In this document: positions 8,648-54,552 of the stretch, piece after piece | How the letters are laid out: each line of letters starts with the position of its first letter | Position numbering within the stretch: position 1 is the first letter of the stretch | DNA from: Bacillota bacterium | Lineage (GTDB): Bacteria > Bacillota > Dehalobacteriia > UBA4068 > UBA4997 | Direction of reading: 5' to 3' | Assembly (NCBI GenBank): GCA_021769035.1 | Contig: JAETTP010000001.1 | Location: forward strand, 35,408 to 99,407 | Length of the DNA: 64,000 bases | Made by a program: the position numbers and the translations under genes | Notes under the pieces: model-generated | Told to the model about the DNA's origin: nothing | What the model saw: the letters and a program-made list of their open reading frames with translations, nothing else | Database searches by the model: none

Positions 8648-8896
8648 TGTTTTATCCTCCATACTAATTTTTTATAACTGCGTTTTTAGTATGTGGTTTT
8701 GCGGCCAAACTATTAGCTCAAATTCTGGCAAATTTTTAAGATATTGACAACCAAAAGCAAAACGAAAACCCCCGCGGCAACAGGGGGCTTTCGCTGTGCA
8801 TTTTGTGTTAAGATGAATACACATTTTGTTCAATATTATTATAGCACTTAAACCAAATCGTTGTCGAGATGCAAACGATATTAAGAAGGTGCAAAA

Positions 8897-8938
8897 ATGC
8901 TTGATTTCTCCATTTTAAAATTGAACAAACAAAAATAG
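8897..8938 (+). other. decayed 13-codon peptide ORF (MLDFSILKLNKQK) at the toxin position of a type I TA-like module
   Basis: ATG after AAGAAGGTG. Ends in the shared aatagccgcc...ggcggctatt terminator as the full-length copies do. Confidence 0.25.
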
Positions 8939-9023
8939 CCGCCCAGTTTCGCGATTGTCGCGGCTATTTTTATTATAGAAGCAAAATCGAGGGCTGACCC
9001 GGTTTAAGGGATCCGCTCTTTGT
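8928..9023 (-). ncRNA. antisense sRNA, family 1 (orphan/decayed-toxin copy)
   Basis: Minus-strand TTGACA(9058-9053)-17-TATACT(9035-9030). Body aaatacaaagagcggatcccttaaaccgggtcagccctc... homologous to copies at 11.5, 22.3 and 53.3 kb. Ends in hairpin plus U-run. Confidence 0.4.
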
Positions 9024-9712
9024 ATTTATAGTATAACAAGAAAAATTTGATTTGTCAACTGGTTTTTTGCCAAATTCATACAAAACAGCTAGGCTTACTA
9101 GGCAAGTATTTTGAAGACCAGGTGAAGAATTTGTGAAAAAAAATTAAAAATAATCTGTATTTTAAACACAAAACCCCTTTACGGATTGCAAAGGATGTGG
9201 TATAATCAGCTAAGATAAACTCTGTGTAAACTGATTTGGTTGTGTCAGGTGATGAGGCACAGGGTTTGGGGCCGCAAAAAACGGCCTGGGAGGAGGTTAT
9301 AATTAACGTTCCTTATGTGCTGAAAAGCGCTCCGCCAAAGCTTGCCGGCTTTGGGCAGCTGTTACAGGGGCAGCCCGCCAAAGGCCAACTGCCAAAAGCG
9401 GCCGCGCAACCCAGCATTACATATAGGAAAGCATTTGAAAATGCGCCGTGCCAAAACGTCGGCTGAAGCTAGCAGCCGGCCCCTTGGCCGAAGAACGTTC
9501 ATTCAGCCGCTGGCACGGGCAAAATTACGCAAACAGCAAAAAGGTTCCGTTTGCCCAATTTGGTAGAAGCAATATAAAAGAGGACAGCTAAAAACAGCAA
9601 TTATTTTTTCTTCTCCTCTTTTTGCCGGCTGTTGCCGGTTTTGCTAAAAACAAACGCAGCTTGCCTTGCTTTTTGCTAACAAATGCAAAAAAGAAAAAAG
9701 GAGGAACAAAAC

Positions 9713-11198: not shown

Positions 11199-11238
11199 TT
11201 AACATAAAAAGGAGCGGCTTCCTGGAGGCCGCTCCTTT
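11199..11238 (+). terminator. intrinsic terminator
   Basis: aaaaaggagcggcttcctggaggccgctccttttttat. Confidence 0.6.
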
Positions 11239-11255
11239 TTTATGATTATTAAAGC

Positions 11256-11284
11256 TTGCTATTTAGCAAAAACTATAGTATAAT
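11256..11284 (+). promoter_or_regulatory. sigma-A type promoter of peptide A mRNA
   Basis: TTGCTA-17-TATAAT. Gives a ~130-nt 5' UTR. Confidence 0.5.
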
Positions 11285-11419
11285 ATTAATTACAAAGAGT
11301 TGAAACCTTAAACAGGCGGTTAGCCCTCGGACGCAAAGCAATACATTCGTGAAAAATGTATGGTTGAACGAAAGAGGGATTGGGGCCCTCCTCACAAAAA
11401 CAACGAGGAGGTGATGTTA

Positions 11420-11503
11420 ATGAGTTTTATGGAAGTCGCAACGTTTTTATTAGTACTTATAGCGTTTGCCGATGTGATATTAACCCATTGCAAAAAGAAA
11501 TAG
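11420..11503 (+). CDS. 27-aa hydrophobic Lys-tailed peptide (MSFMEVATFLLVLIAFADVILTHCKKK), putative type I toxin
   Basis: GAGGAGG SD 7 nt before ATG. That SD is perfectly complementary to an upstream CCTCCTC (SD-sequestering hairpin). Stop lies inside the terminator hairpin shared with the convergent sRNA. Confidence 0.55.
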   Translation: MSFMEVATFLLVLIAFADVILTHCKKK

Positions 11504-11584
11504 CCGCCCAGTTTCGCAGACTCGCGGCTATTCTTTTTAGCTAGCATCTGAGGGCTGACCCAGTTTAAGGGATCGGCTCTTTGT
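11492..11584 (-). ncRNA. antisense sRNA, family 1, putative type I antitoxin
   Basis: Minus-strand TTGACA(11619-11614)-17-TATAAT(11596-11591). Terminator is the same hairpin (11499-11532) followed by U-run. Overlaps peptide A 3' end by ~45 nt. Confidence 0.5.
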
Positions 11585-11760
11585 ACTTATATTATAGCAT
11601 TTGTTTTTGTTGTTGTCAATATGCCAAAAGCGGTTGAATAGAAAGTTTATGTTGTAATTTGTTGGTAAATATGCTATAATGGGACAGAAAAGAGTTGATT
11701 CTTTGGATGGCGGCCAACCTTACTCGTAAACTTTCGTTAAGCGAGGAAGGGGGTGAGCTC

Positions 11761-11844
11761 ATGAGTTTTGTTGAAGTAATTCTTTTACTTAGCTTTCTCA
11801 TTGAGGTTGTGGATTTTGTTTACCGAATCACAACAAAAAAATAG
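11761..11844 (+). CDS. 27-aa hydrophobic peptide variant (MSFVEVILLLSFLIEVVDFVYRITTKK), putative type I toxin
   Basis: Own promoter TTGTAA(11652)-17-TATAAT(11675). [13 protein letters not shown] sequestered by upstream ccttactcg. Stop sits in the atagccg...cggctat terminator. Confidence 0.5.
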   Translation: MSFVEVILLLSFLIEVVDFVYRITTKK

Positions 11845-11930
11845 CCGACCCGACCAAAGGCTGCGGCTATTTTTTGTACAAAATAGTTGAGTTAAGGTTG
11901 ATTGCTTGAAAATGCAGTCAACTCTTTTCA
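11836..11930 (-). ncRNA. antisense sRNA, divergent body, putative antitoxin of peptide B
   Basis: Minus-strand TTGACA(11965-11960)-17-TATAAT(11942-11937). Shared bidirectional terminator with peptide B. Confidence 0.45.
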
Positions 11931-12249
11931 TCTATTATTATAGCATTTGTTTTTGTTGTTGTCAATGCCCTTTTGCCGCCCAAACTCTTTAATGCCTAAT
12001 TTTTACCTAACCGCACCAGCAATACCTTTTCTCAATCGCTAAGTGTTCATAGAGGATTACATTTGCCTAAAGTCAAATGTATGCGTGAACACTAAGCTCT
12101 TGCTACGCCTTACAGGCTAAGCACTCGCTAAGTGTTCACGCAAAAAAACAGTAGACTTTTTGAGCTTGTGGGTGTAAAATATATTTATAAAAATTGTTAA
12201 AGCTTTCAGAAATCGACTTTGCTAACTTGCTCGATTGGAGGAATCAGCG

Positions 12250-22158: not shown

Positions 22159-22277
22159 GTATTTTGGCGTATTTTTTAGTAAAATAATACTGTATTATTA
22201 AGCCTCGGTTCGCCAGCTCAAAAGTTTTTAACGGTTCTGCGATTGACAAAAACAATTTTCAATGCTATAATATAAAT

Positions 22278-22370
22278 ATAAAGAGCCGACCCCTCAAACC
22301 GGGTCAGCCCTCAAAAGCTTCAGTTAAAAATAGCCGTTACCTTTGGAGCAGGGCGGCTATTTCTTTTTGC
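22278..22370 (+). ncRNA. antisense sRNA, family 1, putative type I antitoxin (copy C)
   Basis: TTGACA(22243)-17-TATAAT(22266). Body aaagagccgacccctcaaaccgggtcagccctc. Terminator aatagccg...cggctatttcttttt shared with convergent peptide C. Confidence 0.5.
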
Positions 22371-22440
22371 AATGGGTTAATATCACATCTGCCAACGCTA
22401 TAAGTACTAATAAAAACGTTGCGACCTCCATAAAACTCAT
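22357..22440 (-). CDS. 27-aa hydrophobic peptide (MSFMEVATFLLVLIALADVILTHCKKK), putative type I toxin copy C
   Basis: One residue different from copy A. Same GAGGAGG SD with CCTCCTC anti-SD. Minus-strand promoter TTGCAT(22602-22597)-17-TATAAT(22579-22574). Homologous ~130-nt 5' UTR. Confidence 0.55.
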   Translation of the reverse strand: MSFMEVATFLLVLIALADVILTHCKKK

Positions 22441-22682
22441 CAACATCACCTCCTCTCCTTGCGTTGAGGAGGGCCCCAATCCCTCAGTCAGCCAACTGTA
22501 CATTTTTCACCAATGCACCGTTTAACTTCCAAGGGCTAACCGCCTGTCTGAATTTTCAGCTCTTTGTATTTATATTATACAACCTTTTAGTTTTGTATGC
22601 AAGCTTATTTTAAAGTTGCCAAATCCTCCCTGCTTGTGCTATAATATATATTTAATAACCAGCACAAGCGAGGGATTTTTTT

Positions 22683-42965: not shown

Positions 42966-43129
42966 TGACAACCTCACATCAAAAATTTTTGATATAATTA
43001 TTATATATTGATCTCGGCGATTTGTCAATAGGCTAAATCAAAATATTTTGATATATTTGTAGTGCTATAGGTTATTTCTAATCAACTGTTATTTCAAATA
43101 GCATAGCCAAGCTTGCCAATCGCTAAGTG

Positions 43130-43178
43130 TTCGCACAAAAAACCCTCGCAAGCATTTCACTCCGAGGGTTTTTATTAT
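43130..43178. terminator. bidirectional intrinsic terminator
   Basis: aaaaccctcgcaagcatttcactccgagggttttt. Confidence 0.6.
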
Positions 43179-47293: not shown

Positions 47294-47364
47294 ACGTTTA
47301 TATTGACAACAGTACTATATTATAGTAAAATATAGGCAAATAATTTTTATAGTGAGGTATAGTT

Positions 47365-47472
47365 ATGCATCTTCCAGTTTATTCTTATGTCTTATCGGCT
47401 GTCAATGTAGTAATATTAGTTGCTATGACCTATTTGGTCTATCGAGTAGCTAAATTTTTCCTGAAAAAGTAA
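47365..47472 (+). CDS. 35-aa hydrophobic Lys-tailed membrane peptide (MHLPVYSYVLSAVNVVILVAMTYLVYRVAKFFLKK)
   Basis: Promoter TTGACA-17-TAAAAT at ~47306. SD GTGAGGT. Strong terminator gagccgcccttttcaaacaaagggcggctttttttgtg immediately after stop. Confidence 0.45.
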   Translation: MHLPVYSYVLSAVNVVILVAMTYLVYRVAKFFLKK

Positions 47473-47539
47473 AGTTTAAGAGAACGAGCCGCCCTTTTCA
47501 AACAAAGGGCGGCTTTTTTTGTGTAAACACTTAGCGATT

Positions 47540-47950
47540 GACAAGTCCACTTTTTTTAGATAACAGCTTTTCCACCTGTGCAGAAAAAAAACTTTTTCTT
47601 AAACCGAAATCTTCAAAAAAAACCTATTGTGATATTCCGTTAATTATAGTATAATATTCAGACACAGAAAAGTTTTTCCACCGAGTTTTACAGATTTTGG
47701 AAAACTTTGTGCACATTGGCTGTTATTAATCTGTGTAAAACTAATTATGCCAGTTAAAAAAAGGTTTTTTGCACAAAATTACCCCAGGCAATTAACATTT
47801 TATACCCACGCCAAAAAAGGCAGCAAAACCTTATAAAATCTGGCTGCAAAAAGTTTTCCACAAAATAAACACAGCTTATTATTATTACCACCATTTAAAT
47901 AACTATAATAATATATATGAGCCTCACAACAATAATATTACCAAAGGAGT
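47540..47950. other. oriC region (dnaA-dnaN intergenic)
   Basis: Multiple DnaA-box-like 9-mers (ttttccacc x2, gttttccaca). AT-rich unwinding stretch. Internal TTGTGA-17-TATAAT promoter. Confidence 0.5.
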
Positions 47951-51755: not shown

Positions 51756-51823
51756 ACCTCTTATTTTGGGGTTGGGCACTCACATTTGCTTTTGTGGGCG
51801 TGGTGGGTGTCCTTTTTTTATTT
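51756..51823 (+). ncRNA. sRNA X1 (promoter-to-terminator unit), convergent with RHH1
   Basis: TTGCCA(51721)-17-TATAAT(51744). Hairpin gggcactcac...gtgggtgtcc plus U9. No ORF. Confidence 0.4.
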
Positions 51824-51991
51824 GCTGAGTTCTTCGTCTACTTTTTCGTTTAACCAATCAGCTTTGGTTCTACCTTGAATTCTAAGTTTTGCTTCTAATG
51901 CTTCAACTTTTTCTCTTTTAAGCATTACGTTAAACTGTTTCATAGTTTTGCGTCTTTCACGAAAATACTCAGCTCTACTTTTTACGGCCAA
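51818..51991 (-). CDS. ribbon-helix-helix (CopG/ParD-like) small DNA-binding protein RHH1
   Basis: TTG start with AAAGGAGG RBS 7 nt upstream. ...KQFNVMLKREKVEALEAKLRIQGRTKADWLNEKV has beta-strand then two helices. Own minus-strand promoter TTGACA-17-TATAAT (52048-52019). Not in ORF track. Confidence 0.5.
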   Translation of the reverse strand: MAVKSRAEYFRERRKTMKQFNVMLKREKVEALEAKLRIQGRTKADWLNEKVDEELSK

Positions 51992-52148
51992 ATCGTCGCC
52001 TCCTTTGGTTGCCTGCTACAATTATATCAAGTTGCAGGCTACTTGTCAATAGGTTTTTGAAAAATTTAGATTGTAAGCATAAAAAACATCCTAAATTTTC
52101 GTTTGTAAAAGTCTTGCCAAAACAGGAGGTATATGCTATAATATTTAC

Positions 52149-52216
52149 ACCTCTTATTTTGGGGTTGGGCACTCACGTTTGCTTTTGCGGGCTTGGTGGG
52201 TGTCCTTTTTTATTTT
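52149..52216 (+). ncRNA. sRNA X2 (near-identical duplicate of X1), convergent with RHH2
   Basis: TTGCCA(52114)-17-TATAAT(52137). Same hairpin plus U-run overlapping the RHH2 stop codon. Confidence 0.4.
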
Positions 52217-52380
52217 TTTAACCTGTTATAGACCTCTTTAATACCTTGGCGAATGATTTCAGATTTTGTCAATCCAGTTTCTTGGACACAAAATTCAAGA
52301 CGTTTTATATCTTCTTCTGATAATCTAATTCGCGTATTTAATATTTTAGGGTCATTGGTTGGACGTCCTTTTGGGGACAA
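52210..52380 (-). CDS. ribbon-helix-helix (CopG/MobC-like) small protein RHH2
   Basis: TTG start after AAAGGAGGTG. (M)SPKGRPTNDPKILNTRIRLSEEDIKRLEFCVQETGLTKSEIIRQGI. Promoter TTGACA-17-TATAAT (52457-52428) overlapped by palindrome GTATCCACA-N14-TGTGGATAC. Confidence 0.6.
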   Translation of the reverse strand: MSPKGRPTNDPKILNTRIRLSEEDIKRLEFCVQETGLTKSEIIRQGIKEVYNRLKK

Positions 52381-52523
52381 GTTTTCACCTCCTTTTAGTA
52401 TCCACAATTATTATATGATATGTGGATACATTTGTCAAGAGGTTTTTGAAAAGTTTAGATTGTAAGCATAAAAAAACCTCCTAAAGTATTGAAATAACCC
52501 TCGGAAGCTGGTATAATAGATTT

Positions 52524-52599
52524 ACCGACCTCTAAAGGTTGTGTGTAATAACAGTATTGCTTGGCTTGTTTAGGGTGTTGCAATACTGTTATTTTTTTT
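52524..52599 (+). ncRNA. sRNA X3, convergent with RHH3
   Basis: TTGAAA(52489)-17-TGgTATAAT(52512). 11-bp stem aacagtattgc/gcaatactgtt plus U8. RHH3 stop lies in the stem. Confidence 0.4.
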
Positions 52600-52762
52600 G
52601 GCTCAAAAGTAAACTTATTCCTTGCCTAATTGCTTCGCCTTTAGTTATATTATTTTCTAAACTGTAAGCTTGCAATTTTTCTTCAGTTTCTAAATCTAGT
52701 CGAATACTGTACCGAATTGTTTTTGGATTATCTACTTTTGGACGACCAGTGCGTGGACTCAA
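52589..52762 (-). CDS. ribbon-helix-helix (CopG/MobC-like) small protein RHH3
   Basis: TTG start after AGGTGA. (M)SPRTGRPKVDNPKTIRYSIRLDLETEEKLQAYSLENNITKGEAIRQGI, paralogous to RHH2. Promoter TTGACT-17-TATAAT (52820-52790). Confidence 0.6.
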   Translation of the reverse strand: MSPRTGRPKVDNPKTIRYSIRLDLETEEKLQAYSLENNITKGEAIRQGISLLLSQKK

Positions 52763-52877
52763 ATCATCACCTACTTTCTGCCACACCATAATTATATAAA
52801 AAGCGTGACAAAAAGTCAATAGTTTTTTTGAAAAAATTCAGATTGACAAAAACAATTTAAAATGCTATAATAATAAA

Positions 52878-52963
52878 AAAGGCACCGTAAGTAAGCGGTT
52901 AGCCTCATCGTTTTGGTGTTATTTTTTAACAACCGTCACTACTGACACTAGTGGCGGTTTTTG
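52878..52963 (+). ncRNA. antisense sRNA X4, putative antitoxin of peptide D2
   Basis: TTGACA(52843)-17-TATAAT(52866). Terminator ccgtcact...agtggcgg plus U5. Overlaps last codons of convergent peptide. Confidence 0.45.
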
Positions 52964-53031
52964 CTATGTCTAAACTTAATCTCAATCGAAATTTTAAAAA
53001 TTCCAATATGAAATATCAGCTTTATTGGCAT
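52948..53031 (-). CDS. 27-aa amphipathic basic-tailed peptide (MPIKLIFHIGIFKISIEIKFRHSKNRH), putative type I toxin D2
   Basis: AAGGAGGTG SD 7 nt before ATG. Anti-SD atcctcc-aaaa-ggaggtg hairpin. Minus-strand promoter TTGACA(53238-53233)-17-TATAAT(53215-53210). ~170-nt 5' UTR carrying the CGCTAAGTG hairpin motif. Confidence 0.5.
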   Translation of the reverse strand: MPIKLIFHIGIFKISIEIKFRHSKNRH

Positions 53032-53308
53032 AGGCCTCACCTCCTTTTGGAGGATATTGACTAACCGTTAAGTGAGCACTTAGCGACTGCCAAGGCCGCA
53101 GGCCGCAGACAGAGCTTAGTGCGAACAAATACCGCAGGTGCAAATAGAATTGTCTGAAAACAAAACTTTGCTCCTGCGGTGCCTACCGTTTGTTACGATG
53201 CCTGTTTAAATTATACAAATTATTGTTCTTATTGTCAAGCTGCGCATAAGTTTTTGCTAACCTAATTTTGCGATTGACAAAAGCGATTTGAAATGCTATA
53301 ATAAAAGC

Positions 53309-53403
53309 ACAAAGAGCCGACTCCTTAAACCGGGTCAGCCATCAGAATTTAACAATTACATAAGTAATAGCCGTTTTTCTTGGTCAGGGCGGCTATTTTT
53401 TTT
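53309..53403 (+). ncRNA. antisense sRNA, family 1, orphan copy D (toxin decayed)
   Basis: TTGACA(53274)-17-TATAAT(53297). Body aagcacaaagagccgactccttaaaccgggtcagcc. Terminator aatagccg...cggctat-U9. Opposite strand 53404-53440 keeps only the 3' half of the toxin ORF (…LVLITFADLILTHCKKK*) with no start. Confidence 0.45.
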
Positions 53404-53508
53404 GCAATGGGTTAATATTAAATCGGCAAACGTTATAAGAACTAATAAAACCGCTACTAAATAGCCCTTAGTAGCGGTTTAGTATTATTTTTTTTGAATG
53501 TCAATATC

Positions 53509-54552
53509 TTAAAAAAGCCAGGCGCGAGCATAGGGCTGCCAATGCCATTCATTCAACAGAGAATCCAAATAGGGGCTGGTGGCGGCTGGCGCAGGATTTG
53601 GGGCTGCCATATTTTGATTAGGCATGGCCATTCTGGAAGCCACCGGCGCATTAACAATTTCGGAAATGGCAGGTGCAGCCGGGGCTACTGGAGCCATTGG
53701 AGCAGTAGCGGCGACGGTTTCTGCTGCTACAGTTGAATTAGCCGGTTGTAGGCTTTGTAATGCCTGTTGAAGGGTTTCGGTGTTCTGCCCGGTTAAAGTG
53801 GACAATATATTCATAATTTGCGGATTGTTGCTGACGTTTTTCAGCATTTGCAGCATTTGCGGATTTTCCTGCAATTCAGCCAGGCTGGTGGGCAAGTGTT
53901 GGTTGCCCAAGCCGGCAAAACCGGCCAGGCTGCTTAAACCGCCCAAGCCGCCTAAACCACCTAAGCCGGGGAAACCGCCTAAACCGCCAAGCCCACCCAA
54001 GCCAGGCAGGCCGCCCAAACCGGGCAGGCCGTTGGCTAAATTGCCCAGGCTGCCTAAATTGCCGCTGGCCAGGCTGCTTAAAAGTTGCAGGGGATTGGTA
54101 TTGGGCTTGCTTAGCAGACTGTTCATCATTTTGGCAAAGGGATTGTTGCTTTGATTAGCCTCTGCTTTAGGCTGAGCTTCCTTTTTTTTCTCATCAGTGA
54201 CTTTATCGCTAACTTCATCACTAACTTCAATAGGGGTGGTTTCAATGATGATGGTAGCCATTTCCGATTCTGTTGGCGTGGTCGATTCAGAAATTGGCTC
54301 TTCATTTGTGGAATTGTTGTTTGCTGGGGTTTCTGCGCTTGCTTCAACCTCAACTGTGGCCTCAGCCTCAGTTTCTGCCTCGGCATTGACTTCAATTTCC
54401 GCTTCAGCGGCTTCTATTGCTTCTTCGGAATCACCAGTTTCAGCCGCTTCTGTTTTGCTGTCTTTCACTTCCAGCTCGCTTAAATGTTGGGCCAGCTGTT
54501 CAAGCGCCTGGCTGGTTTCATACAAACGACTGATTAAATCAGTGTTGCTCAT
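53509..54552 (-). CDS. acidic low-complexity protein with EA/ET-rich N-domain and GLGG-repeat core
   Basis: AAAGAGGTG RBS. Preceded by terminator of upstream gene. Repeats LGGLPGLGGLGGLGGFPGLGGLGGLGGL. Confidence 0.6.
   Translation of the reverse strand: MSNTDLISRLYETSQALEQLAQHLSELEVKDSKTEAAETGDSEEAIEAAEAEIEVNAEAETEAEATVEVEASAETPANNNSTNEEPISESTTPTESEMATIIIETTPIEVSDEVSDKVTDEKKKEAQPKAEANQSNNPFAKMMNSLLSKPNTNPLQLLSSLASGNLGSLGNLANGLPGLGGLPGLGGLGGLGGFPGLGGLGGLGGLSSLAGFAGLGNQHLPTSLAELQENPQMLQMLKNVSNNPQIMNILSTLTGQNTETLQQALQSLQPANSTVAAETVAATAPMAPVAPAAPAISEIVNAPVASRMAMPNQNMAAPNPAPAATSPYLDSLLNEWHWQPYARAWLF

What the first reader, a model, noticed from the sequence alone, without database searches (positions are those of the whole stretch)
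11243..11965. Tandem pair of type I toxin-antitoxin-like modules: 27-aa Lys-tailed membrane peptides with convergent ~90-nt antisense sRNAs
Seen in sequence. Two adjacent units share one architecture. Each has a sigma-A promoter with exact 17-bp spacing (TTGCTA/TATAAT at 11256; TTGTAA/TATAAT at 11652) and a structured 85-130 nt 5' UTR. In that UTR the SD (GAGGAGG or GAGGAAGG) is perfectly paired to an upstream anti-SD. Each unit encodes a 27-codon ORF, a hydrophobic helix ending in KKK or TTKK. Its stop codon sits inside a hairpin that also terminates a convergent transcript started from a perfect TTGACA-17-TATAAT promoter on the other strand. The mRNA and sRNA overlap only at their 3' ends (~45 nt). 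That is the arrangement of bsrG/SR4 and txpA/RatA type I systems, and SD sequestration is typical of type I toxin mRNAs. No protein database would show these, because every ORF is below 30 codons. Family members recur at 8.9, 22.4, 53.0 and 53.3 kb.
Basis: partly seen in the sequence, partly recalled or inferred. Interest (0 to 1): 0.85.

Follow-up and report, generated by a model that had tools for sequence, protein, structure and literature searches.

The report
Tandem type I toxin–antitoxin modules
Two adjacent mini-genes each encode a 27-residue membrane peptide that is probably held in check by an antisense small RNA; they are real, unannotated, compact relatives of the Bacillus subtilis bsrG/SR4-type toxin–antitoxin systems, so a new member of a known kind.

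Summary
The promoters, both 27-codon Lys-tailed ORFs, the SD/anti-SD hairpins, the stop-codon hairpins and the convergent perfect-consensus promoters are all at the stated coordinates, far beyond chance.

The type I toxin–antitoxin reading is supported by sequence comparison:
- I found 22 distinct units of the same layout in relatives and phage contigs.
- Substitutions spare the second codon position, as expected for a translated hydrophobic peptide.
- All three toxin-dead copies keep the sRNA gene.
- One phage member scores above threshold against Pfam Hol_Tox, and the window peptides align to that group by profile comparison.

The first ~45 nt of each toxin mRNA are mirrored downstream of the stop-codon hairpin. 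This inverted repeat pairs better as toxin-sense RNA in 20 of 22 units. The hairpin carries a good U-tract only on the sRNA strand.

That is the published bsrG/SR4 layout: a long 5'–3' helix P1, the stop codon in SL3, and an antitoxin that covers SL3 plus the 3' half of P1. The mRNA–sRNA overlap is therefore probably ~95 nt, not ~45.

Verdict: a compact, divergent, undatabased member of a known kind. Transcripts and toxicity are untested.

The parts
11256..11284 (+). Unit 1 toxin promoter (TTGCTA-17-TATAAT)
   Evidence: homologous promoters in the 22.4 kb copy and in L002b
11292..11334 (+). Unit 1 toxin mRNA 5' domain (ACAAAGAG...GGCGGUUAGCCCUC). Proposed 5' half of a P1-like long-range helix. 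The sRNA 5' domain is a copy of it.
   Evidence: Inverted repeats I2/I6. Duplex with 11544-11589: -61.5 kcal/mol, z -10.8. Strand asymmetry.
11374..11411 (+). Unit 1 relay and SD-sequestering hairpin: GAGGG 11374-11378, anti-SD CCUCCUC 11387-11393, SD GAGGAGG 11405-11411
   Evidence: Opening energy of SD..AUG is 11.9 kcal/mol.
11420..11503 (+). Unit 1 toxin ORF, 27 aa: MSFMEVATFLLVLIAFADVILTHCKKK
   Evidence: Codon-position pattern. Profile match to the Hol_Tox-like set.
11490..11541 (.). Unit 1 hairpin T1. It holds the stop codon in its 5' arm and has a 16-nt loop. It is the terminator of sRNA1 and the equivalent of bsrG SL3.
   Evidence: I4; (-22.4 kcal/mol); loop and U-tract statistics; PMC3834814
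11544..11600 (+). Unit 1 'tail' on the toxin strand: proposed 3' half of the P1-like helix. Alternatively it forms a local hairpin T2 followed by a U-rich run, which is the probable 3' end of the toxin mRNA.
   Evidence: T2 fold -17.7 kcal/mol
11489..11584 (-). sRNA1 (putative antitoxin, ~96 nt): 5' hairpin domain plus terminator T1
   Evidence: fold; covariance model hit 92.5 bits; consensus structure with compensatory changes
11591..11619 (-). sRNA1 promoter, perfect TTGACA-17-TATAAT with TG
11652..11680 (+). Unit 2 toxin promoter (TTGTAA-17-TATAAT, TG)
11687..11750 (+). Unit 2 5' domain (GAAAAGAGUUGA...) with anti-SD CCUUACUCG (11718-11726) pairing to [11 protein letters not shown] (11742-11750)
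   Evidence: (I7)
11761..11844 (+). Unit 2 toxin ORF, 27 aa: MSFVEVILLLSFLIEVVDFVYRITTKK
   Evidence: On record as a 45-aa gene call, P0001.
11832..11878 (.). Unit 2 hairpin T1 (stop codon in the 5' arm, 16-nt loop); terminator of sRNA2
   Evidence: I9
11879..11935 (+). Unit 2 tail: proposed P1 3' half, or T2 hairpin (11896-11923) followed by CUUUUCAUCU
   Evidence: The terminator scan flags 11896-11923 on the + strand. Fold -20.6 kcal/mol, z -4.5. Duplex with the 5' domain -37.2 kcal/mol, z -6.2.
11830..11929 (-). sRNA2 (putative antitoxin, ~100 nt)
   Evidence: z -3.75; 62 bits
11937..11965 (-). sRNA2 promoter, perfect consensus, in a 31-mer identical to that of sRNA1
22243..22603 (-). Complete paralogous unit: toxin ORF 22357-22440 (-), one residue different from unit 1; sRNA 22278-22371 (+); sRNA promoter 22243-22271 (+)
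8924..9058 (-). Orphan sRNA gene (8924-9023) with promoter TTGACA-17-TATACT (9030-9058). The toxin upstream (about 8860-8935, + strand) is a pseudogene. The intact ortholog is in L015 8870-9245.
53274..53460 (-). Remnant unit: toxin lacking its 5' half (...LVAVLLVLITFADLILTHCKKK); intact sRNA 53309-53407 (+) and promoter 53274-53302 (+)
52843..53238 (-). Related unit with a different 27-aa peptide (MPIKLIFHIGIFKISIEIKFRHSKNRH, 52948-53031 -). Toxin promoter 53210-53238 (-); sRNA 52873-52969 (+); sRNA promoter 52843-52871 (+).
   Evidence: Relative MPIILTLHILGFVITVRIKKQNRHSGK in L025.

Best explanation
Each unit is a compact type I toxin–antitoxin module of the bsrG/SR4–bsrE/SR5 kind.

Components:
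- A moderately strong promoter makes a toxin mRNA that encodes a 27-aa single-helix membrane peptide with a Lys tail.
- A cis anti-SD hairpin keeps the ribosome-binding site closed from the moment it is transcribed.
- A perfect-consensus convergent promoter makes a ~95-nt sRNA, which ends at the hairpin (T1) holding the toxin's stop codon.

Proposed pathway:
1. On the toxin strand T1 is a poor or leaky terminator. The mRNA continues ~50 nt to a second hairpin plus U-run (T2).
2. That tail can pair with the mRNA's own first ~45 nt in a long 5'–3' helix, like P1 of bsrG mRNA.
3. The sRNA is fully complementary to T1 plus the tail. Most likely its terminator loop first kisses the large, paralogue-specific T1 loop, and the duplex then spreads over the tail.
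4. This frees the mRNA 5' domain, which carries the anti-SD or a relay to it. The SD becomes more tightly closed.
5. The ~95-bp duplex is cut by RNase III, so the toxin mRNA decays.

Shown here: the sequence features, their conservation, the strand-specific complementarity and the predicted energies.

Inferred: both transcripts and their ends, translation, toxicity, the binding pathway and the RNase.
For: Layout and chance.

Conservation: the same layout is found in 8 complete units from the window, from relatives and from one viral contig (L002, L013, L015, L019), and in 14 more from viral contigs.

Translation:
- ORF length stays at 27 codons in most of the closest relatives while DNA diverges.
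- Differences by codon position are 12/3/10 (unit 1 vs L002b), 16/4/14 (L015a vs L015b) and 0/0/3 (unit 1 vs 22.4 kb).

SD closure: opening SD..AUG costs 10-17 kcal/mol in all 8 units.

sRNA: a 5' hairpin plus terminator, with compensatory changes in 10 of 15 pairs. A covariance model recovers new copies that were not in its training set.

P1-like helix:
- The 5' domain:tail duplex is -37 to -63 kcal/mol, z -6 to -11, in all 8 units.
- It is more stable as toxin-sense RNA in 20 of 22 units. Mean difference is -9.5 kcal/mol against -2.6 from composition alone; paired Wilcoxon p = 2e-6.

Terminators:
- T1 has 3.8 of 9 U on the toxin strand against 6.6 of 9 on the sRNA strand; the sRNA strand has more U in 18 of 19 units.
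- T2 hairpins of -18 to -23 kcal/mol are followed by U-rich runs.

Effect of the tail: making the tail unavailable, as sRNA binding would, raises the SD opening energy in 18 of 22 units.

T1 loops: they are 13-19 nt in the 11 hand-delimited units. They are hypervariable between paralogues: unit 1 vs 22.4 kb is 44% identical in the loop, 96% in the ORF and 100% in the stem.

TA-like genetics:
- All three degenerate copies lost the toxin and kept the sRNA.
- The family is absent at the orthologous site of a sister species.
- It occurs in phage contigs.

Link to the known kind:
- The L037 peptide hits Pfam Hol_Tox at 37.7 bits, E 1.8e-9.
- hhalign of the window-type profile against the viral profile gives 96.9% probability.
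- The published bsrG mRNA structure and SR4 mechanism match point by point (PMC3834814; PMC6562991).
- My fold of the SPbeta bsrG locus reproduces P1.
Against: - No transcript, 5'/3' end, peptide or toxicity data exist for this organism.
- In the two window units T1 has a fairly good U-tract on the toxin strand as well (5 of 9 U, plus the UU of the stem). Much of the mRNA may stop there and never form the long helix.
- With the tail, the SD stays strongly closed (7-19 kcal/mol). The predicted effect of the tail is small and absent or reversed in 4 of 22 units.
- The window peptides themselves hit no Pfam or NCBIfam model.
- The hhalign link rests on 27-aa hydrophobic sequences, which can inflate scores.
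- Neither Rfam's BsrG model (13.5 bits) nor my sRNA model run on SR4 (9 bits) shows RNA sequence homology. Common descent with the Bacillus systems is therefore not shown, only the same architecture.
- Several of the 22 units are related to each other, so the counts overstate independence.
Confidence: 0.7

Rival explanations
1. par/Fst-style module. Both RNAs end at one shared bidirectional terminator and overlap by only ~45-50 nt. After a terminator-loop kiss, the sRNA 5' domain blocks the ribosome-binding site in trans, as with DRa/DRb of par or the 5' domain of SprA1AS.
For: - Convergent promoters and a hairpin with A/U tracts on both sides in the two window units.
- Large complementary loops.
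- An SD-sequestering 5' stem-loop.
- The par layout as described in PMC7472228 and SprA1AS in PMC8167048.
Against: - The 5' domains of mRNA and sRNA are inverted repeats in the DNA, not direct repeats. The two RNAs therefore carry the same sequence, not complementary ones.
- There is no complementarity above shuffles between the sRNA 5' domain and the translation initiation region or the whole mRNA.
- Across the family the toxin-strand U-tract of T1 is weak.
- The mirrored repeat pairs preferentially in toxin-sense RNA, which has no role in this model.
- The toxins lack the Fst PxxxG and Trp features (sequence).
Confidence: 0.15
2. These are antisense-regulated small membrane peptides with a non-addictive function, not a toxin–antitoxin pair in the strict sense. 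Examples would be a phage lysis or holin modulator, or a ComI-like inhibitor of a membrane machine.
For: - Two viral members lie directly after a phage holin gene; the L019 one matches the r1t-type model.
- The Hol_Tox-positive member also resembles ComI at 36.9 bits, below the cutoff of 55.
- In B. subtilis, BsrE is toxic only on overexpression (PMC6562991).
Against: - Tight SD closure, an antitoxin promoter stronger than the toxin promoter, and multicopy patchy distribution are the hallmarks of type I TA loci.
- So is the one-sided decay pattern, in which toxins die and sRNAs persist.
- The chromosomal copies here lie between housekeeping genes, not in lysis cassettes.
Confidence: 0.1
3. A non-coding repeated element, for example a MITE-like inverted-repeat element or a pair of insulating terminators. 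The 27-codon ORFs would then be incidental.
For: - Flanking inverted repeats of ~45 nt.
- Multiple copies and remnants in 64 kb.
- Assembly breaks at the repeat in metagenome contigs.
Against: - Second codon positions are spared.
- Most ORFs in the window-type lineages are 27 codons, and every one has a well-spaced SD.
- Homology ends exactly at the two -35 boxes, without target-site duplications.
- The repeat is strand-asymmetric in the way expected for RNA pairing.
Confidence: 0.03

Closest known systems
bsrG/SR4 of Bacillus subtilis prophage SPbeta (TxpA/BsrG family type I TA)
   Same: - A small hydrophobic toxin ending in KKK.
- The SD sits in a short anti-SD hairpin.
- A long helix P1 joins the first ~35 nt to a segment downstream of the ORF.
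- The stop codon lies in the 5' part of stem-loop SL3, whose complement is the antitoxin's terminator.
- The antitoxin covers SL3 and the 3' half of P1.
- First contact is between the antitoxin terminator loop and L3.
- Binding frees the 5' strand of P1 and lengthens the SD helix from 4 to 8 bp.
- RNase III then degrades the duplex.
Sources: PMC3834814, PMC6562991; locus read in L058.
   Different: - The antitoxin here is ~95 nt, not 180 nt. It starts exactly at the outer end of the P1-like helix and has no SL1/SL2.
- There is no separate mRNA terminator after P1. The tail itself can fold into a hairpin plus U-run (T2), and the sRNA promoter follows directly.
- In the window units T1 also looks like a terminator on the toxin strand.
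- The toxin is 27 aa rather than 38 aa.
- No detectable RNA sequence homology.
bsrE/SR5, bsrH/as-bsrH and ComI (BsrH/BsrE family; Pfam PF16935 Hol_Tox)
   Same: - Toxins of 28-30 aa with an M-x-x-x-E/Q start, one hydrophobic helix and a basic tail.
- The antitoxin pairs at the mRNA 3' end.
- bsrE mRNA is reported to fold like bsrG mRNA (PMC6562991).
- One family member found here (L037) scores 37.7 bits on Hol_Tox and 36.9 bits on ComI.
   Different: - The window peptides do not reach any model threshold on their own. The link is by profile comparison and by the shared RNA scaffold.
- The hosts are uncultured Clostridia-like bacteria and their phages, not Bacilli.
par (fst RNA I / RNA II) of pAD1 and the Fst/Ldr family
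   Same: Convergent promoters, complementary terminator-loop hairpins as the probable first contact, a 5' stem-loop closing the SD, and a small antitoxin made of a 5' domain plus a terminator (PMC7472228).
   Different: - par uses direct repeats DRa/DRb, so the two 5' domains are complementary and the antitoxin covers the start site. Here the repeats are inverted and no such complementarity exists.
- The toxins lack the Fst motifs.
hok/Sok and aapA1/IsoA1 (5'–3' long-distance interaction in the toxin mRNA)
   Same: The toxin mRNA is closed by pairing of its 5' and 3' ends. T1TAdb treats such interactions as key determinants (PMC8594479).
   Different: - In those systems the long-distance helix locks the inert form and 3' trimming activates it. 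I state this mechanism from memory; it is not taken from a paper read here.
- Here, as in bsrG, the antitoxin is complementary to the 3' strand of the helix itself, and the helix is predicted to loosen the SD slightly rather than close it.

Membership tests
Type I toxin–antitoxin system (general) | Small (<60 aa) hydrophobic or membrane peptide gene | tested here: met
   27-aa ORFs; mean hydropathy of the core is 1.9-2.6; Lys tail; second codon positions are spared
Type I toxin–antitoxin system (general) | Antisense RNA gene overlapping the toxin gene | tested here: met
   Met at the sequence level only. Perfect-consensus convergent promoter plus terminator. Conserved structured sRNA. Transcription was not observed.
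Type I toxin–antitoxin system (general) | Peptide is toxic and the RNA neutralises it | not testable with these tools
   Indirect only: all three degenerate copies kept the sRNA and lost the toxin.
bsrG/SR4–bsrE/SR5 architecture | Long helix (P1) between the mRNA 5' end and a segment 3' of the ORF | tested here: met
   Met as a prediction. Duplex of -37 to -63 kcal/mol, z -6 to -11, in 8 of 8 units. It is favoured in toxin-sense RNA in 20 of 22 units, p = 2e-6 against the composition control. Whether the tail is transcribed is not known.
bsrG/SR4–bsrE/SR5 architecture | Stop codon in a stem-loop whose complement is the antitoxin's terminator, and which is not the mRNA's own terminator | tested here: inconclusive
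   The stop codon lies in the 5' arm of T1 in all units. The U-tract is strong on the sRNA strand and weak on the toxin strand across the family. In the two window units, however, the toxin-strand tract is fairly good.
bsrG/SR4–bsrE/SR5 architecture | Antitoxin complementary to the 3' half of P1, with ~100-140 bp of overlap | tested here: met
   The sRNA spans T1 plus the whole tail, ~95 nt. This is the low end of the published range (PMC6562991) and depends on the mRNA reaching T2.
bsrG/SR4–bsrE/SR5 architecture | SD in a short helix that is reinforced when the antitoxin binds | tested here: met
   Met as a prediction. The SD is paired in all units. Opening energy is higher without the tail in 18 of 22 units. 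The effect is small.
Pfam PF16935 Hol_Tox / BsrE-BsrH-ComI toxins | Peptide scores above the family threshold | tested here: not met
   The window peptides get no hit at E<=10. A phage member on the same RNA scaffold scores 37.7 bits against a cutoff of 23.3. The profile–profile link is 96.9%. This makes the window peptides a remote relative, not a demonstrable member.
Rfam RNA families (BsrG RF01412 and all others) | Match at the gathering score | tested here: not met
   Only 3 tRNAs in the window pass. The best match in 11200-12000 is far below threshold; BsrG scores 13.5 against 55 bits.
par / Fst (RNA I–RNA II) | Direct repeats DRa/DRb that make the two 5' regions complementary over the start site | tested here: not met
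   The repeats are inverted. There is no complementarity above shuffles.
par / Fst (RNA I–RNA II) | Fst-type toxin (PxxxG motif, conserved Trp, charged tail) | tested here: not met
   The peptides contain no Pro or Trp. Motif as given in PMC7472228.
SprA1/SprA1AS | Antisense that overlaps at the 3' end but acts through 5'–5' pairing on the ribosome-binding site | tested here: not met

The most novel reading that the evidence does not exclude
In this compact variant one ~50-nt tail has three jobs. It is the toxin mRNA's own terminator hairpin (T2), the 3' strand of the long 5'–3' helix, and the antisense of the antitoxin's 5' domain. The antitoxin promoter sits immediately behind it.

Toxin output would then be set by a termination choice. 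Transcripts that stop at T1 are permanently closed and inert. Only transcripts that read through to T2 can refold into the stable helix form with a loosened SD. The sRNA, a near-copy of the mRNA's own 5' domain, competes with that domain for the tail.

Read-through at T1, and possibly collision with polymerases at the antitoxin promoter, would be the real switch.
Probability: 0.2. Interest if true: 0.6.

Novelty: new member of a known kind. Interest (0 to 1): 0.4.

Why it matters
This extends the bsrG/bsrE-type type I toxin–antitoxin design from Bacilli to uncultured Clostridia-like bacteria and their phages. A review of clostridial systems reports that homology searches found almost no relatives of known type I toxins in that group (PMC6563280).

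The family is dense: six loci in 64 kb of this window. It is almost absent from protein and RNA databases because the ORFs fall below gene-caller length limits.

The comparative set assembled here gives independent evolutionary support for two elements so far defined mainly by probing of single Bacillus RNAs. These are the long 5'–3' helix and the antitoxin-terminator recognition loop. The set comprises 22 units, a working covariance model and a strand-asymmetry test.

The short 95-nt antitoxin and 27-aa toxin would also make a minimal model system, or a compact RNA control device.

Tried and rejected
- Rfam at gathering and at E<=10: nothing but tRNAs and terminator-driven noise.
- Pfam and NCBIfam on the window peptides: nothing.
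- Word-indexed protein search with the 47-aa extended ORF: nothing.
- Exact look-up of the neighbouring transporter with my start codon: not on record.
- The genome and metagenome DNA scans with a 21-base sRNA motif gave only one locus each. The source genome itself is not in the genome collection.
- Peptide-pattern scan of viral contigs: 98 pattern matches, none confirmed.
- One viral hit (L020) was a high-GC false positive.
- GenBank phages (tblastn) and PLSDB plasmids (blastn): no match.
- par-type or SprA1AS-type trans pairing of the sRNA 5' domain with the start region or the rest of the mRNA: not above shuffles.
- A relay switch in which the tail fully opens the SD: not supported. The SD stays closed by 7-19 kcal/mol.
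- With only 8 units the strand-asymmetry test was marginal (Fisher p about 0.03-0.05). It became clear only with 22 units and a composition control.
- MITE or transposon reading: homology stops at the two -35 boxes and there are no target duplications.
- My sRNA covariance model does not detect SR4 in SPbeta.
Full report
**1.

- + strand: TTGCTA-17-TATAAT at 11256-11284 and TTGTAA-17-TATAAT at 11652-11680.
- - strand: perfect TTGACA-17-TATAAT at 11619-11591 and 11965-11937.

The two - strand promoters sit in identical 31-mers. The window holds 11 perfect TTGACA-N17-TATAAT sites against 0.02 expected. Five are sRNA promoters of this family, one is the toxin promoter of the 52.9-kb unit, two precede tRNA genes, and three precede small regulator genes.

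The ORFs are 11420-11503 (MSFMEVATFLLVLIAFADVILTHCKKK) and 11761-11844 (MSFVEVILLLSFLIEVVDFVYRITTKK).

Folding puts the SD in a hairpin with an upstream anti-SD, in both the MFE and the centroid structure. The pairing is a perfect 7 bp in unit 1. In unit 2 it is interrupted by an internal loop.

Both stop codons lie in the 5' arm of a hairpin, which I call T1: 11490-11541 and 11832-11878.

**2. Copies in the window and elsewhere**

In the window:
- 22.4 kb is a complete paralogue. Its toxin differs by one residue from unit 1.
- 8.9 kb and 53.3 kb keep an intact sRNA gene and promoter but have a dead toxin.
- 52.9 kb carries another 27-aa peptide on a related scaffold.

Outside the window:
- A DNA motif from the sRNA found a Peptococcaceae MAG (L001).
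- It also found a metagenome contig with another tandem pair (L002).
- The profile search of 1.84 billion protein representatives found only the unit-2 ORF itself, called as 45 aa, and one 30-aa relative. Their contigs gave strains of the same species (L003-L012) and a distant unit (L013).
- A sister species whose neighbouring transporter is 93% identical has two further units with 31-aa 'MFW' toxins (L015). One of them is the intact ortholog of the window's 8.9-kb remnant.
- Viral contigs gave L019. After a scan for the Lys-codon/T1 motif, filtered with a covariance model of the sRNA, they gave 14 more distinct units.

The organism is uncultured. The nearest named relatives are 'MAG: Clostridium sp.' (transporter 96% identical) and 'MAG: Peptococcaceae bacterium'.

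**3. The ORFs behave as coding sequence**
- Five of the six window-type ORFs compared are 27 codons (L013 has 28), at 45-70% DNA identity.
- Differences by codon position are 12/3/10 for unit 1 against L002b, 16/4/14 for the two MFW genes, and 0/0/3 for unit 1 against the 22.4-kb copy. Sparing of the second position is what selection for a hydrophobic helix predicts.
- Every unit has a purine-rich SD 7-10 nt before the ATG.

**4.

The first ~45 nt of each toxin mRNA recur, inverted, between T1 and the sRNA start (I2, I6, I7). The sRNA 5' domain is therefore a near-copy of the mRNA 5' domain. Equivalently, the toxin-strand 'tail' after T1 is complementary to the mRNA 5' end.

- The duplex is -37 to -63 kcal/mol (z -6 to -11) in all eight complete units then in hand.
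- The sequence co-varies between lineages: ACAAAGAGCUGA, GAAAAGAGUUGA, GGUGCUAUC and AAGGUGCUAC.

If this were only a DNA repeat or shared ancestry, neither strand should pair better. Instead:
- The toxin-sense duplex is more stable in 20 of 22 units.
- The mean difference is -9.5 kcal/mol. Composition-matched shuffles give -2.6.
- The paired Wilcoxon p is 2e-6.
- With only eight units the test was marginal.
- Some units are related, so independence is overstated, but the direction holds across all the main lineages.

Two further observations fit a toxin mRNA that runs past T1:
- The run after T1 has 3.8 of 9 U on the toxin strand against 6.6 of 9 on the sRNA strand, where the Lys codons supply it. 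The sRNA strand has more U in 18 of 19 units.
- The tail can alternatively fold into a stable hairpin followed by a U-rich run (T2). The energies are -17.7, -20.6 and -22.7 kcal/mol for the three window units. The terminator scan flags the unit-2 hairpin.

**5. This is the published bsrG/SR4 design**

In bsrG mRNA (PMC3834814):
- nt 1-35 pair with nt 232-262 in helix P1.
- The SD sits in a 4-bp helix.
- The stop codon is in the 5' part of SL3.
- The first contact is between the SR4 terminator loop and L3.
- On binding, nt 1-33 become single-stranded and the SD helix grows to 8 bp.
- RNase III then cuts the duplex.

bsrE/SR5 is reported to be similar (PMC6562991).

I read the bsrG locus in SPbeta. 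The same folding procedure reproduces P1, and the strand difference has the same sign.

The mapping onto this window is:
- T1 = SL3.
- Tail = 3' half of P1.
- T2 = the mRNA terminator, here merged with the P1 strand.

The predicted effect of removing the tail from play, as the sRNA would, is a rise in the SD..AUG opening energy in 18 of 22 units. The direction is the one reported for SR4, but the size is modest. The site is closed by 10-17 kcal/mol in the eight window and relative units even before this.

T1 loops are 13-19 nt in the 11 hand-delimited units, unusually large for a terminator. They differ sharply between paralogues whose toxins are nearly identical (44% against 96%). That fits a recognition loop.

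**6. Protein-level link**

The window peptides hit no Pfam or NCBIfam model. Among the viral members on the same RNA scaffold:
- One (MSVMEALILMFLFGNFILALLTYISKKK) scores 37.7 bits on Pfam Hol_Tox against a cutoff of 23.3. It also scores 36.9 bits on ComI, below that model's cutoff of 55.
- Three more are sub-threshold on Hol_Tox.
- A profile of the window-type peptides aligns to the viral profile over all 28 columns with 96.9% probability.

For 27-residue hydrophobic peptides this is suggestive rather than proof of descent.

**7. Rival readings tested**
- The par/Fst scheme needs direct repeats that make the two 5' domains complementary over the start site (PMC7472228). The repeats here are inverted.
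- Neither the start region nor the rest of the mRNA is complementary to the sRNA 5' domain above shuffles. The same result argues against a SprA1AS-type action (PMC8167048).
- A mobile-element reading fails because homology ends at the two -35 boxes.

**8. Toxin–antitoxin genetics**

All of these are typical of type I loci:
- In all three degenerate copies (8.9 kb, 53.3 kb and strain L005) the toxin is lost and the sRNA with its promoter survives.
- The orthologous intergenic site in the sister species holds an unrelated small-peptide/antisense module instead.
- The antitoxin promoter is consensus while the toxin promoter is 10 of 12.
- Members occur in phage contigs, twice directly after a holin gene.
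- Tandem pairs recur four times.

**9. Verdict and limits**

The finding is real and correctly interpreted in kind. It is a compact, divergent and essentially undatabased member of the bsrG/bsrE–SR4/SR5 type of type I toxin–antitoxin system.

The main correction concerns the extent of the toxin mRNA, and hence the overlap and the mechanism.

Nothing here shows transcription, translation or toxicity. In the two window units T1 could terminate much of the toxin transcript. RNA-level homology to the Bacillus systems is not detectable.

Noticed in passing
L015 11540-11900 and L015 8546-8635: In the sister species, the same intergenic site (between the SLC13 transporter and the MalT-like regulator) holds a different small-peptide module: MATLLYLVITVMGNALGITFAHFFVKWLDGDK. 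It has a convergent TTGACA-17-TAGAAT promoter and a shared terminator. A second peptide of that type, MDVLFSFAIVVAGNVAFYYIIKWLDSIWR, lies upstream. Neither has a Pfam hit. The site looks like a hotspot for type I-like cassettes.
   Followed up: partly
L005 431-700: In another strain of the window's species, the unit-1 toxin and its 5' UTR are replaced by a different cassette. That cassette has its own consensus promoter, a terminator and a short repeated GCAAATGCGCACAT motif. The sRNA1 gene downstream is kept intact.
   Followed up: partly
window 12037-12050, 12085-12098(-), 12126-12139, 43121-43134, 47523-47536(-), 53072-53085(-): The motif CGCTAAGTGYTCAC occurs 6 times against 0.48 expected. 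The 12037 and 12085 copies form the arms of a long hairpin just downstream of unit 2. Another copy lies inside the 5' UTR of the 52.9-kb unit. Its function is unknown.
   Followed up: no
window 51800-52820 (- strand): Three small ORFs look ribbon-helix-helix-like: 52589-52819, about 52210-52380 and about 51820-51990. The latter two each sit behind a perfect TTGACA-17-TATAAT promoter and are each followed by a repeated ~55-nt element (AAAAAGGACACCCACC...GTGAGTGCCCAACCCCAAAATAAG). They lie next to the 52.9/53.3-kb toxin units.
   Followed up: no
window 47296-47560: A 35-aa hydrophobic KK-tailed peptide (MHLPVYSYVLSAVNVVILVAMTYLVYRVAKFFLKK, 47365-47472 +) lies behind a TTGACA promoter and ends at a strong terminator. 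The sRNA model gives a weak hit on the opposite strand (47477-47557, 22 bits, E 0.015). No clear convergent promoter was seen.
   Followed up: no
window 11590-11620 and 11936-11966: The sRNA promoter segments of units 1 and 2 are identical over 31 nt, although their toxins are only 41% identical. This suggests recent gene conversion or a constraint on this segment. Strain L005 differs by one base in the unit-1 copy.
   Followed up: no
L019 6146-6430 (- strand) and L035 about 9400-9600: Two phage-borne family members lie immediately downstream of a holin gene. The L019 gene matches the phage r1t holin model PF16945 (E 1e-16). The L035 gene was judged by eye only: its C-terminus resembles the L019 holin.
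   Followed up: partly
window 52948-53031 (-) and L025 2262-2683: The non-hydrophobic 27-aa peptide of the 52.9-kb unit (MPIKLIFHIGIFKISIEIKFRHSKNRH) has a relative in a viral contig (MPIILTLHILGFVITVRIKKQNRHSGK). There too it sits in tandem with a Hol_Tox-like unit. This looks like a second conserved peptide type on the same RNA scaffold.
   Followed up: partly
window 53509-54552 (-): A 347-aa ORF has long GLGG/GGLGG repeats and no Pfam hit. Its terminator replaces the 5' half of the 53.3-kb toxin gene.
   Followed up: no
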